From positions 90,506 through 154,505 of the IMG/VR virus record IMGVR_UViG_3300035661_000011: a stretch of 64,000 nt of DNA; one strand, 5' to 3'. Made by a program: the position numbers and the translations under genes. This DNA is from a virus. Position 1 is the stretch's first letter. Every line of letters begins with the position of its first letter. Below are positions 51,851-55,750 of this stretch, piece by piece. The notes beneath the pieces were generated by a model. It worked only from the letters and a program-made list of their open reading frames with translations, did no database searches and was not told the DNA's origin.

Positions 51851-53308
51851 ATGAGTATTGATAAGTTACCATTTAATATATTTTTATTACCGAACGATAG
51901 ATCAGAAATAGCTGGTCAGTTACCAGTTCGTTCACTAGATATTTTCTCTAGCGACAATCAGTTCAATGTAGACGGATTGTATAGCTCAATTGCATTTGGT
52001 GAAGTCGGAACGTACGACCGTCAAAGTAGATGCGGCTATATAGATTTACGTACTGAAATTATGCATCCTAAAATCTTTAAGGAGTTAGTTAAACTAAAAG
52101 GTTTATATGGAGGTATTATCTCTGGTAGGACTTACGTTCTATGGGATGGTAAGTTGAAAGACTTTGTTCCATCCAATGTCATTGATGGTAAAACAGGCTA
52201 TGCGTTCTTTATGAGTCATTTCTTAGAAATGATGCACGCTACAAATGATTCTAACATTAGAGACTTACGAATCAAGCTAATGGAAAAGAGTAAAGACAAA
52301 TGTATGTATCAATTTTATCAAGTGATACCGGCCGCTTTACGTGATATTGAAATGAATTCCCAAGAACGTCCTAAAGAAGATGAAATCAACCAGATGTATA
52401 GGAAGATGATTCGCGCTAGTAATACAATATCTATACATAGTCGTAATGTAAATGACCCTATGTTAGATACAGCTAGATGGACTTTACAACAGGCTGCAAA
52501 CGATATCTACGATTACCTTGAAACTATCATGTCTGGTAAACACGGTTGGTTAATGGATAAGGTAGCATCTAGAAACGTATCTGGCGGTACGAGAAATGTA
52601 ATTACTGCTATGGATGCCGCCCCTAAGAAACTAGGTGCTAAAGATGCAATCACCGTTGACCACACTTTAGTTGGTTTACATCAATACCTTAAGGGCACTA
52701 TTGATTTAACTATCTACGACATCCGTAAAGGCCCTATGGCACCTGTTTTAGAGTTTATGCCCACTATGGCGTATGTAGTGGATGTAAAGTCCTTAAATCG
52801 CAAAACTATTACACCATCTAAATTCACAGTGGATAACTGGGGAACAGAAGAAGGAATTGAAAAATTAATAAATGGGTTTGCTAAAGATACCACTAGACAT
52901 AAACCAATTATGATAGATGGTAACTATGCTGCATTAGTGTATCGAGATGACAAACATGTTAAAGTGTTTTATGATATTTCAGATTTACCACACGGGTTTG
53001 ATAAAAGTAAAGTGTCTCCACTCACTTGGGCTGAAGCATTTTATTTATCAGTTTATAGAAGTGCTGAGGACGTTGGTAACTATGACACTCGATACCCAGT
53101 GGCTGACTTAGGTTCTATTTATGGAGCTAAGACGTATTTGGTCACTACAGTAAAAGCTGATAACTTGATTGAATTAGATGAACACTGGAAACCATTATTG
53201 GGAGATGTGCATCTATTTAGTTTCCCAATTAAATCTGAACCATTTGTTGACAGTTGTAGTATCCACCCTAATAAAGAAAATGGGGCAGGTGCTGACCACG
53301 ATGGAGAT
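51851..53308 (+). CDS. Virion RNA polymerase beta' catalytic subunit (phiKZ gp180-like), exon 1
   Basis: DGLYS..FG.VG...R, VIPAALRD, GK.G...K...R.V..GTRNVIT, RYPV and catalytic GADHDGD, after which homology stops abruptly. Confidence 0.9.
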
Positions 53309-53974
53309 TTTTACTATACATTAAAATGTGCGTAATTCATAGGTTTATAAGGTTGTTGTAATAGTTTGCCCTACGGTTTTAATATAATACGGTACACAAC
53401 GCATGTGCACCTTATTATAATTAACTTTGGGGGAGCGATGTACAAACAAATACCTAAAACAGATGGGTATTAGAACTGATGGAAGAAGACAAGAATTTAA
53501 ATCTATTAGAGATGCGGAAGTAAGAACTTTTTTAAATAGAAAACTTATTTCCAAATGCCTTAAGGGTTTACCAATTTCGTCAAGCTGGAATTTTAAATAC
53601 GCATACAGTGTATAATTGAGTCCTACACACAGGTAACTGTGTGATAGATTCTTCTTGAATTGCTGGAATAACTCGTTAGACTAATCAACTACAATAGCCG
53701 TGAAAACAGGCTATGAATGTCTGAAAATGATTAGGTAGAGTCAACCGTGGGACATAAGTCCCCTTTAGCAGCGAAGCTCCTAAGTCACTATGTGATATGG
53801 AGAACGTTCAACGATCATCCCTTATCCAGGGAGTAGAGCCTCTAGTTATAAAATGAGGAAGAAGTGGGAAGCTCCCTGATATATCAGGGTGAAGATATGA
53901 TCTGCTCCTACACGAGAGTGTAGGCGGGTGTCTTAGCACACCGGGTTAGCTTAACGCACTAACCGGACAGTAGG
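53309..53974 (+). mobile_element. Self-splicing group I intron (IA-like) in vRNAP beta'
   Basis: P AATTGCTGGAA (53658-68), Q TTAGCAGC (53765-72), R GTTCAACGATCA (53806-17) and S AAGATATGATCT (53892-903), with compensatory P7 GATCA/TGATC. P7.1/P7.2/P8/P9 hairpins present. The 5' exon ends in U and the intron ends in G. Splicing restores DHDGD-KMS (cf. DFDGD-QMA). Confidence 0.88.
53427..53615 (+). pseudogene. Remnant of an intron homing endonuclease (NUMOD1-like DNA-binding helix only)
   Basis: EFKSIRDAE...LNRKLISKCLKG.....WNFKY; no HNH, GIY-YIG or LAGLIDADG nuclease domain visible. Confidence 0.6.
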
Positions 53975-55750
53975 AAAATGAGTATTCAGTTTGTTTTATC
54001 TAAAGAAGCTAGAAAAGAAGTCCATGACTTTCATAATAGTAAAGAATCTTTATTAAATCAAACTGGGCAATTGCGATATGGTATTAATAATAAAATTTCT
54101 GAATTAGTAGTTGAGGCTATGACTATTGGATTTTATCCATCTAAAGCTGGCTTAGAGGATTTAAAAGACGATATAGATGAAGCTGCACATGAAGCTGCAA
54201 CGTCACACTTAAACGATTTACCAGAGCCAACGATTCCAATGTATGAAGCCGGTAACTATAAGAAAGGTCATATCGCTTTACAAGGTTTAAGAATATCTAT
54301 TGAAAACCCACAGGGGTCTACTCGAAAGGGGGTTGATAAAGACGGTAAAGAATGGTCTCGTGTAATGTCTCATCATTATGGGTATGTTAAAGGTTCGTTA
54401 GGGGCTGATGGTGACCACGTTGATGTATATGTTGGTGATACACCAGAGTCAGAGGATGTATTTGTTGTGAATCAGATATTTCCAGATACGCTTAAATTTG
54501 ATGAACATAAAGTAATGCTCGGATTTACTACTTTAGACTCTGCTGTTAAAGCGTATAAAAGTAACTTTACTAAAGACTGGAAAGGTTTAGGTTCAGTAAC
54601 TGAAATTACAATGGAGGAATTTAAAGAACATCTAAAGAAAGATAAAGTCACTAAACCTATTTTAAACGACGAAAGTGTTCATTATGGTACAGAAGATCTA
54701 AAGGTGTACAAACCACCAGTTGTACGTTCTGCTACAAAGAAAGATTTACCTAAGTTAATCGAGCTATGGAAAACCTTAGTGTCTGAAACTAACTATCTAC
54801 GAAACGACATTGTTGAATCAAATAAAGTTTCATTTGAAACTAATAAATTTAATGAAATGTCTAAAGAACCAAATAAGTATTTCGTATTGGATTTAGATGG
54901 TCTAATTGTGGGGGCTATACGGTGCACTGTTGTCAAATATAAGAGTGAAGCTAGCTTTGGGTTAGGTGTGCTTGCTAAACACCAAGGTAGAGGCTATGGG
55001 GCGTTATTAATTAACACTCTCATATCTTCATTAAAAGAGGATGGTATTAGTCTACTCTACCTATACGTAAATACAGAAAACGTTAGGGCTATTGGACTTT
55101 ATAACAAACTAGGGTTTAAACCAAATGGTAAACTATTAGAGATTGGTAAAGAAAAACTTTTAGAGATGGATATGCAATTAGGTTCAACTAAACCTAAGTC
55201 ATCTATCTATGCTAAATCACTAAAAGAAATTGATTTTCTATCATTAGTACGAGGTACTTTTAAGTTGGGGTTTGGAAATGAAAATATGATAGACCCATAT
55301 TTGAATGGTAGAAACGTTAACACTTTAGAGTTTAAACACGAACAACGACATCGCGTAGGAAATGTTTTTCAAGACACCTTTGATAACACTATGCGAGAAT
55401 TAGGTTGGTCTGAATCGAAGCCAGTTGATAAGTCTTGGGTGGGTTTTGATTTAGATGGTACATTAGCCGAATACGATGGGTGGAAAGGTATCGAGTTTAT
55501 TGGTAAACCGATTCCATCTATGGTAGATCGAGTTAAACAGTATTTAAGTGATGGTCAAAACGTAAAGATATTTACAGCCAGAGCCTGTGATGATGAAGCA
55601 ATTCCTTTTGTAAAAGAGTGGTTGACTGTTCATGGTCTTGGTGAGTTGGAGATAACCAATGTAAAAGATTTTCACATGGTTAAACTATATGACGATAGAT
55701 GTGTTCAAGTTGTAGAAAACACAGGTGAACTCGTTGGGTTAGGAAAATAA
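53975..55750 (+). CDS. vRNAP beta' exon 2 fused to inorganic-pyrophosphatase-like, GNAT acetyltransferase and HAD phosphatase domains
   Basis: ~55 aa RNAP tail. EAGNYKKGH..ISIENP.GS.R.G...HYGY...GADGDHVDV (InPase). GVL..HQGRGYG..L...NVRAIGLY.KLGF (GNAT). GFDLDGTLA..IFTAR..K..LYDDR (HAD). Confidence 0.85.
   Translation, partial: KMSIQFVLSKEARKEVHDFHNSKESLLNQTGQLRYGINNKISELVVEAMTIGFYPSKAGLEDLKDDIDEAAHEAATSHLNDLPEPTIPMYEAGNYKKGHIALQGLRISIENPQGSTRKGVDKDGKEWSRVMSHHYGYVKGSLGADGDHVDVYVGDTPESEDVFVVNQIFPDTLKFDEHKVMLGFTTLDSAVKAYKSNFTKDWKGLGSVTEITMEEFKEHLKKDKVTKPILNDESVHYGTEDLKVYKPPVVRSATKKDLPKLIELWKTLVSETNYLRNDIVESNKVSFETNKFNEMSKEPNKYFVLDLDGLIVGAIRCTVVKYKSEASFGLGVLAKHQGRGYGALLINTLISSLKEDGISLLYLYVNTENVRAIGLYNKLGFKPNGKLLEIGKEKLLEMDMQLGSTKPKSSIYAKSLKEIDFLSLVRGTFKLGFGNENMIDPYLNGRNVNTLEFKHEQRHRVGNVFQDTFDNTMRELGWSESKPVDKSWVGFDLDGTLAEYDGWKGIEFIGKPIPSMVDRVKQYLSDGQNVKIFTARACDDEAIPFVKEWLTVHGLGELEITNVKDFHMVKLYDDRCVQVVENTGELVGLGK

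What the first reader, a model, noticed from the sequence alone, without database searches (positions are those of the whole stretch)
51851..55750. Virion RNA polymerase beta' subunit carrying a pyrophosphatase-GNAT-HAD cargo, separated by putative prohead-protease sites
Seen: after removal of the intron, the reading frame is 486+591 = 1077 aa. RNAP-like sequence ends ~55 aa into exon 2, but the frame continues without a stop through an InPase-like domain (YGY...DGDHVDV, cf. family I PPase DGDPLDV), a complete GNAT and a HAD phosphatase (DLDGT/T/K/DD). G-x-E motifs lie in all three linkers: KAGLE|DL (54149-57), HYGTE|DL (54686-94) and GFGNE|NM (55274-82). Known: the phiKZ prohead protease cuts after S/A/G-x-E; the vRNAP is packaged and injected; InPase and GNAT domains are typical of phage/plasmid 'polyvalent' proteins. 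Inference: the polymerase subunit serves as a packaging carrier, and the enzymes are released during head maturation and co-injected. A PPase could remove the PPi made by early transcription in a compartment (early infection vesicle) lacking host PPase, while GNAT and HAD may act on host or defence targets. I am not aware of such an RNAP-effector polyprotein being described.
Basis: partly seen in the sequence, partly recalled or inferred. Interest (0 to 1): 0.93.

Follow-up and report, generated by a model that had tools for sequence, protein, structure and literature searches.

The report
Phage RNA polymerase carrying enzyme cargo
A giant bacterial virus has attached three unrelated enzymes to the end of the RNA polymerase subunit it packs into its head, and close relatives carry different enzyme sets joined by the cut motif of the head-maturation protease, so the polymerase probably ferries a swappable enzyme kit into the host; packaging and cutting have not been measured.

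Summary
Observation confirmed. The gene is the phiKZ gp180 orthologue (catalytic virion-RNAP subunit) of an uncultured nucleus-forming jumbo phage. A group I intron (53309-53974) follows DxDGD, and splicing gives 1077 aa: RNAP, InPase, GNAT, HAD. The fusion is real: intronless relatives of 1000 and 1214 aa carry cargo in frame, whereas 191 of 216 full-length orthologues, and phiKZ, stop at about 540 aa. In a fully supported 8-member clade every known C-terminus has cargo, in shuffled order around a single-origin InPase. The clade's likely protease motif (G-L-E) was inferred from capsid, internal-head and protease propeptides. It marks all four linkers of the 1214-aa relative. Best reading: cargo is packaged and injected with the polymerase and probably cut off at E547 (0.62). 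Enzyme-fused virion polymerases (N4-type) and the PPi-clearing idea are published (Iyer 2017); this carrier and its cleavable joints were not found in the papers searched. This scan already flagged the 1214-aa relative and similar polyproteins on other DNA.

The parts
51851..53308 (+). Exon 1: virion RNAP beta-prime-type subunit (phiKZ gp180 orthologue), aa 1-486, ends with catalytic DxDGD (53294-53308)
   Evidence: PHROG 2986 E 8e-162; 34% identity to phiKZ gp180, E 2e-89; same gene order as phiKZ gp181/gp180/gp178
53309..53974 (+). Group I intron; P1 with U53308 paired to G53620 plus an 8-bp long-range extension (53315-22 with 53607-14) closing a ~285-nt L1 loop; ends in G
   Evidence: Rfam RF00028; relatives' introns over gathering score; P1 read by eye from the sequence
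53427..53615 (+). Remnant of a homing-endonuclease ORF (NUMOD-like DNA-binding piece) in loop L1
   Evidence: PF22083 E 9e-4; a relative (L122) has a full 469-aa HNH/NUMOD1 ORF directly after its exon 1
53975..54130 (+). Exon 2 start: last ~52 aa of the RNAP subunit; orthologues normally stop here
   Evidence: tail HMM from 72 orthologues, E 5e-17; length survey; phiKZ exon 2 ends 7 aa later
54149..54157 (+). Candidate prohead-protease site 1, G-L-E547 followed by D (best site)
   Evidence: rank 1 of 68 Glu with the clade matrix; G-L-E within 20 aa of the RNAP end also in L082, L001, L088 and P0004
54158..54664 (+). InPase (type I pyrophosphatase-like, polyvalent-protein type); acidic metal-binding motif at 54407-54424
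   Evidence: PF18823 E 2e-55; high-pLDDT model and Foldseek hits to family I PPases; 30 synonymous vs 7 non-synonymous changed codons against L082
54686..54694 (+). Candidate site 2, G-T-E726 followed by D (weak)
   Evidence: rank 3 of 68, score 5.7; G replaced by C in the 93% relative L082
54713..55186 (+). GNAT acetyltransferase with acetyl-CoA-binding motif A
   Evidence: PF00583 E 2.5e-15; PDB 3f8k E 9e-11; 26-39% identical to the GNATs of other gp180 fusions
55274..55282 (+). Candidate site 3, G-N-E922 followed by N (weak), inside a ~75-aa low-confidence linker with no homologue among fetched proteins
   Evidence: rank 4 of 68, score 4.1; G-N-E occurs in the relative's protease propeptide aligned to a phiKZ gp175 motif; linker search empty
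55409..55750 (+). HAD-family phosphatase (T4 PNK-phosphatase-like), DxD motif at 55448-55462; stop codon ends at 55750
   Evidence: PHROG 1238/415; Foldseek 2ia5, 1ltq, 2obb; Atlas; co-occurs with InPase in 12+ other fetched proteins

Best explanation
The gene is a self-splicing mRNA for a 1077-aa virion RNA polymerase subunit with C-terminal enzyme cargo. (1) Splicing of the group I intron restores the frame (strongly inferred). (2) The subunit assembles into the vRNAP and is loaded into the prohead, so the cargo enters the head at about the copy number of the polymerase, roughly 10 per virion in phiKZ (inferred from phiKZ and SPN3US, where fusions to gp180 are packaged and injected). (3) The S80 prohead protease cuts after G-L-E547, freeing a normal-length subunit, and perhaps less efficiently at the two weaker sites, giving InPase, GNAT and HAD singly or as a two- or three-domain piece (inferred from motif statistics). 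(4) The pieces are ejected with the DNA into the early-infection vesicle. The most likely job of the InPase, the constant module of this clade, is to hydrolyse PPi from early transcription in a compartment cut off from host enzymes; HAD probably trims phosphate from nucleotide or RNA ends; the GNAT probably acetylates a protein close by (all inferred, untested).
For: Fusion independent of the intron: intronless P0122/L001 (1214 aa) and P0121/L089 (1000 aa). Cargo is lineage-specific and shuffled within a 100%-supported clade whose sisters have none; the six cargo InPases form one clade, 98/94. G-L-E is the only x-x-E trimer shared by all 7 propeptide regions of capsid, probable portal, internal-head protein and protease in this phage and its relative. 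The relative's protease site E201 aligns with a phiKZ gp175 motif at E210 and matches SPN3US E203 (PMC5694885); the capsid site E168/170 matches phiKZ E163 (PMC11297242). In G001, G[LI]E-S occurs 12 times in 55,000 aa: 7 in propeptides, 4 in the four gp180 linkers, 1 elsewhere. Window sites rank 1, 3, 4 of 68 (chance of one top-4 Glu in each linker about 7e-4). Asp and Asn after the cut are tolerated in phiKZ, and both pieces of cut gp162 stay in the virion. 9 of 24 cargo-bearing orthologues have an [SAG]-x-E motif within 25 aa of the RNAP end against 0.9 expected (pattern chosen after seeing the data). The phage has a nuclear-shell gene and a tubulin.
Against: No RNA, virion proteome or enzyme data. 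Window site scores (9.8, 5.7, 4.1) are below the training range 13.6-20.8; the training sites are themselves predictions, not mapped cuts. Site 2 is lost in L082. A conserved G-[IL]-E337 inside the RNAP core scores second, so a motif match alone does not mean cutting (it lies in a confident helix). Eight direct RNAP-GNAT fusions and P0121 have no junction motif. SPN3US gp240, the vRNAP subunit of matching size, is not listed as processed, and propeptides usually leave the head. The protease gene is not on this 54%-complete contig; by synteny with G001 it would lie just past the contig end.
Confidence: 0.62

Rival explanations
1. Tethered accessory domains: the fusion is packaged and injected but, in this phage, stays largely uncut. 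The InPase and HAD work as polymerase-bound PPi/phosphate scavengers, like the HD domain on the RNAP of Bacillus jumbo phages, and the motifs are decaying relics.
For: Off-consensus sites 2 and 3 and loss of site 2; nine fusions with no junction motif; HD phosphohydrolase fused to an RNAP subunit in group 1 Bacillus phages (PMC7824862); tethering would put a PPase next to the source of PPi.
Against: G-L-E is kept within 20 aa of the RNAP end in four lineages of the clade although the flanking linker changes freely; near-consensus motifs at all four linkers of P0122.
Confidence: 0.22
2. The extension acts before or during assembly (late-infection enzymes, or a long C-terminal propeptide): it is cut off and cleared from the head, and nothing is injected.
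For: In SPN3US most pieces removed by the protease are no longer detectable in mature heads (PMC10052503); the protease itself and T4 Alt lose C-terminal propeptides.
Against: The modules are folded 110-170-aa enzymes with intact catalytic motifs, and the InPase shows purifying selection. InPase domains elsewhere sit on portal, minor-head and DarB-like injected proteins. Multiple sites flank the domains rather than shredding them.
Confidence: 0.1
3. No functional fusion in this phage: the cargo is made on its own from the ATG at 53978 on unspliced RNA, or the intron no longer splices.
Against: The spacing is too short for a good ribosome-binding site. Met at this position is common in intronless orthologues and absent in the intron-bearing L083 and L088. 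The 52-aa RNAP tail has 12 synonymous and 0 non-synonymous changes against L082, which implies splicing. Any spliced product must read through into the cargo, and intronless relatives are fused.
Confidence: 0.06

Closest known systems
phiKZ gp180 / SPN3US gp240 (catalytic beta-prime-type subunit of the Chimalliviridae virion RNAP)
   Same: 34% identity over exon 1, same gene order, a break a few codons from the same site (phiKZ gene split after G-A-D, gp179 in between), same 52-aa tail
   Different: phiKZ ends 7 aa after the tail; this protein continues for 539 aa with three enzymes. SPN3US gp240 is not reported as processed.
Polyvalent proteins of phages (Iyer et al. 2017, PMC5512222), including N4-like virion RNAPs fused to metallopeptidase, ART, lysozyme or PBECR domains
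   Same: Variable multi-enzyme architecture, hallmark InPase (PF18823) and GNAT domains, virion-associated carrier, the same PPi-clearing hypothesis
   Different: The carrier is a subunit of a double-psi-barrel multi-subunit vRNAP, not the T7-like N4 enzyme, MuF or portal. Joints marked by the head-protease motif were not found in the passages read.
Substrates of S80 prohead proteases (phiKZ gp175, SPN3US gp245), e.g. phiKZ gp162 and the 201phi2-1 vRNAP beta subunit
   Same: Cut after small-x-Glu; gp162 is cut into pieces that both stay in the virion; a vRNAP subunit can be a substrate
   Different: Known cuts remove propeptides or split structural proteins; none is known to release unrelated enzymes from a polymerase.
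HD phosphohydrolase fused to an RNAP beta piece in group 1 Bacillus jumbo phages (PMC7824862)
   Same: A phosphohydrolase attached to a jumbo-phage RNAP subunit
   Different: Different subunit, single fixed domain, no reported cut sites or module shuffling.

Membership tests
gp180-type vRNAP subunit | Homology to gp180 over the full length with catalytic DxDGD | tested here: met
gp180-type vRNAP subunit | Late head/tail region between tape-measure/lysozyme (gp181) and vRNAP beta (gp178); distinct from the nvRNAP paralogue | tested here: met
   separate gp55-like paralogue beside the nuclear-shell gene
gp180-type vRNAP subunit | Present in the virion and injected | not testable with these tools
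   inferred from phiKZ
Polyvalent proteins | Two or more unrelated enzymatic domains from the polyvalent repertoire in one chain | tested here: met
   InPase, GNAT, HAD
Polyvalent proteins | Architecture varies among relatives | tested here: met
   InP; InP-GNAT; InP-HAD-GNAT; InP-GNAT-HAD; GNAT-InP-GNAT-x; InP-x-x
Polyvalent proteins | Linked to a virion-delivery module | tested here: met
   fused to a virion RNAP subunit; delivery itself not shown
S80 prohead-protease substrate | Phage encodes an S80 protease | tested here: inconclusive
   absent from the 54%-complete own contig; present in relative G001, E 6e-50, just beyond the point where the own contig ends
S80 prohead-protease substrate | Motif matching the phage's own propeptide sites, in linkers | tested here: inconclusive
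   met for site 1 and for all linkers of P0122; weak for sites 2 and 3
S80 prohead-protease substrate | Cleavage shown by mass spectrometry or in vitro | not testable with these tools
   no data
Group I intron | Catalytic core, U-G pair at the 5' splice site, terminal G, frame restored on removal | tested here: met
   P10 weak
Type I pyrophosphatase (InPase) | OB-type PPase fold and conserved acidic/Tyr/Lys catalytic residues | tested here: met
   D144, D149, D175, E176, K178, Y134, R116, Y193 of the exon-2 ORF conserved in alignment A2; fold hits
Type I pyrophosphatase (InPase) | PPi hydrolysis measured | not testable with these tools
   no assay found for this subfamily in the papers read

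The most novel reading that the evidence does not exclude
Nucleus-forming jumbo phages use the essential catalytic subunit of their injected RNA polymerase as an address tag for a fast-changing cassette of enzymes; the head protease cuts the cassette into free enzymes, which equip the early-infection vesicle with its own metabolism (PPi and phosphate removal for transcription, protein acetylation) before any phage gene is translated.
Probability: 0.45. Interest if true: 0.82.

Novelty: new variant of a known kind. Interest (0 to 1): 0.68.

Why it matters
How the membrane-bound early-infection vesicle supports transcription without host enzymes is an open question (PMC12908238). This locus points to specific enzymes delivered with the polymerase, and makes the question testable in phiKZ, where gp180 fusions are already known to be packaged and injected. 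It would also show a natural design in which an essential virion protein carries interchangeable, protease-releasable cargo. Standard annotation hides such loci, because the intron splits the gene into an apparently truncated polymerase and a separate acetyltransferase/pyrophosphatase ORF.

Tried and rejected
Generic [SAG]-x-E count: 16 observed vs 12.7 expected, uninformative. Assembly error or frameshift after the RNAP tail: not seen in four DNA runs. RNA evidence: no RNA holder listed, so splicing could not be tested. Cultured phage with the same architecture: no INPHARED record covers 80% of the exon-2 ORF. Prohead protease in the own contig: not found, contig incomplete. InPase in four cargo-less relatives: no match, but the control did not ring either. 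The structure model of exon 2 was poor for the GNAT and linker 3 because the alignment was thin there, so linker accessibility was not settled. Linker 3 (about 75 aa) has no homologue among fetched proteins. Promoter and terminator scan was at chance level. Automated P1 search missed the helix, which was read by eye. The primary papers on phiKZ and 201phi2-1 cleavage (Thomas 2010, 2012, 2013) were not held, so cut positions are cited from later papers. Literature searches for a protease-cut jumbo-phage polyprotein or an InPase-fused vRNAP returned only Iyer's surveys and unrelated papers. Long orthologues that are inteins (P0123-P0125, P0378) or a fusion of two RNAP pieces (P0337, by inspection) were not counted as cargo.
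Full report
Observation. The window has a 494-aa ORF at 51851-53335 and a 590-aa ORF at 53978-55750. 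Rfam places a group I intron core at 53604-53924 (E 2e-9, 43 bits, under the cut-off of 50); the corresponding introns of three relatives pass the cut-off. Removing 53309-53974 (U before, G last) gives an open frame of 1077 aa. By eye, P1 forms with U53308 opposite G53620, and an 8-bp extension closes a large L1 loop that holds a homing-endonuclease remnant (PF22083). PHROG 2986 is matched at 3-489 by exon 1 and at 490-538 by the start of exon 2. InPase, GNAT and HAD follow. Contigs of four DNA runs from microbial mats and sediments show no indel in exon 2.

What it is. Exon 1 is 34% identical to phiKZ gp180 and sits in the same gene order. phiKZ gene 180 is itself split a few codons upstream, and its second part ends 7 aa after the conserved tail. 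The genome (154 kb, 54% complete) encodes a phiKZ-type capsid protein, a nuclear-shell protein, a tubulin and a separate non-virion RNAP paralogue, so it is a nucleus-forming jumbo phage.

Is the extension standard? No. Of 216 orthologues with a complete C-terminus, 191 end 40-80 aa after DxDGD. Of the 25 longer ones, 4 are inteins, 1 is a subunit fusion, 2 have short tails and 18 carry extra domains. The fusion does not depend on the intron: L001/P0122 is an intronless 1214-aa protein (RNAP, GNAT, InPase, GNAT, unknown 134-aa domain) and P0121 an intronless 1000-aa one (RNAP, InPase, two unknown regions). Intron-bearing relatives have exon 2 products RNAP tail-InPase (L083), tail-InPase-GNAT (L088) and, in P0128, InPase-HAD-GNAT (no DNA available). 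On a tree of the RNAP core these form a 100%-supported 8-row clade in which every known C-terminus has cargo, while the sister rows P0005, P0006, P0007 and P0017 have none. The six cargo InPases form one clade (98/94): one acquisition, then shuffling of the other modules. Elsewhere in the tree are direct RNAP-GNAT fusions of about 700 aa, ParB-like cargoes and other tails, so this C-terminus has accepted cargo several times. Against the 93% relative L082, the RNAP tail shows 12 synonymous and 0 replacement codons, the InPase 30 and 7, and the GNAT 13 and 9.

Are the linkers protease sites? I therefore inferred the clade's motif from likely substrates. In the regions homologous to known propeptides (capsid, probable portal, internal-head protein in both genomes, protease C-terminus in G001), G-L-E is the only x-x-E trimer found in all seven. 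The positions fit mapped cuts: capsid E168/E170 vs phiKZ E163; protease E201 vs SPN3US E203, and it aligns with the motif at E210 of phiKZ gp175. In G001, G[LI]E-S occurs 12 times in 55,000 residues: seven in those propeptides, four in the four gp180 linkers, one in the tape measure. Rank 2 is a conserved site inside the RNAP core, in a confident helix. However, the window scores (9.8, 5.7, 4.1) are below the training range (13.6-20.8), site 2 has Cys for Gly in L082, and only site 1 has the full core. Asp and Asn after the cut are accepted by the phiKZ enzyme (gp162 E137/D138, capsid E163/N164). In the model, the cut after E547 falls at the start of the helix that begins the InPase module. 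Across all cargo carriers, 9 of 24 have a small-x-Glu motif within 25 aa of the RNAP end against 0.9 expected, with a pattern chosen after the fact; the eight direct GNAT fusions and P0121 have none.

How it most likely works. Shown here: gene anatomy, fusion, domain identity, lineage-specific shuffling and motif placement. From the literature: the vRNAP assembles before entering the prohead (PMC5694885); fluorescent fusions at either end of gp180 are packaged, at about 7 copies per virion for the N-terminal one, and injected into the early vesicle (PMC10612078; bioRxiv 2024.03.24.586471). Inferred: the cargo rides in with the subunit, is cut off at E547 during head maturation, perhaps further at the weaker sites, and is ejected with the DNA. 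The InPase is the constant module, and PPi removal beside a polymerase sealed in a lipid vesicle is the most economical function. HAD accompanies InPase in at least a dozen other fetched proteins, which suggests a shared phosphate- or nucleotide-clearing role. The GNAT target is unknown. Confidence 0.62; rivals are permanent tethering (0.22), a disposable or late-acting extension (0.10) and no functional fusion (0.06).

Comparison with what is known. It works like the polyvalent virion proteins of Iyer et al. 2017, who list InPase and GNAT as typical domains, describe N4-type virion RNAPs fused to ART, lysozyme and nuclease domains, and already propose PPi clearance; it meets the testable features of that class. 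An HD domain on a Bacillus jumbo-phage RNAP piece is also published. I found no paper describing cargo on gp180 or release of enzymes from a polymerase by an S80 protease. Within this scan the idea is not unique: first readers flagged the 1214-aa relative (I had found and tested it before looking), and follow-ups describe protease-jointed polyproteins on other vRNAP subunits and carriers (not checked here).

Verdict. Real, well supported by comparative data, unproven experimentally; a new variant of a known kind. Interest 0.68. The intronless 1214-aa relative is the better object for the cleavage test.

Noticed in passing
L001:6001-9645 (P0122; genome G001, 181 kb, direct terminal repeats): Intronless 1214-aa version with near-consensus G[LI]E-S at all four linkers. 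The last 134-aa domain begins with a Y-H-G-S-P motif, ART-like by eye; Atlas clusters are unnamed, with DUF6886 on 12% of one cluster.
   Followed up: partly
window 53309-53974 and L082-L088, L105, L122, phiKZ L123: The DxDGD-coding region is an insertion hotspot: introns at two or more neighbouring positions (after A-D, after D-F-D, after D-G-D) and inteins right after DFDGD in P0123-P0125 and P0378.
   Followed up: partly
L088:1719-2097 and phiKZ gene 180 (L123): The frame-restoring 3' splice site of the L088 intron appears to end in A rather than G; the phiKZ exon 2 also resumes at F-D-G-D. Not resolved.
   Followed up: no
P0015, P0019, P0026, P0027, P0031, P0035, P0036, P0044: Direct RNAP-GNAT fusions of about 700 aa without a protease motif, in several separate branches of the wider clade: a tethered acetyltransferase on the vRNAP.
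   Followed up: partly
P0055, P0093, P0111, P0260, P0279: Distant gp180 orthologues with a ~120-aa ParB-like C-terminal domain (two copies in P0279), apparently gained more than once, some behind an A-x-E motif.
   Followed up: partly
P0277 residues 1-172: N-terminal cargo domain ending in S-L-E followed by S directly before the RNAP start.
   Followed up: no
P0337: gp180 apparently fused to the next beta-prime piece (Cys-rich), i.e. two vRNAP subunits in one chain.
   Followed up: no
G000:C1:57305-59551 (L092:2806-5052): 748-aa protein with no Pfam or PHROG match and several protease-like motifs clustered at aa 214-330: candidate processed head protein.
   Followed up: no
window 53658-53969 in runs X1-X4: Other contigs in the same samples share the intron core and diverge at its ends, so related group I introns occur at other loci in these communities.
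   Followed up: no
L084:9237-9953: Autoinducer-synthase/FeeM-like acyltransferase gene two genes downstream of a cargo-less gp180 in a relative.
   Followed up: no
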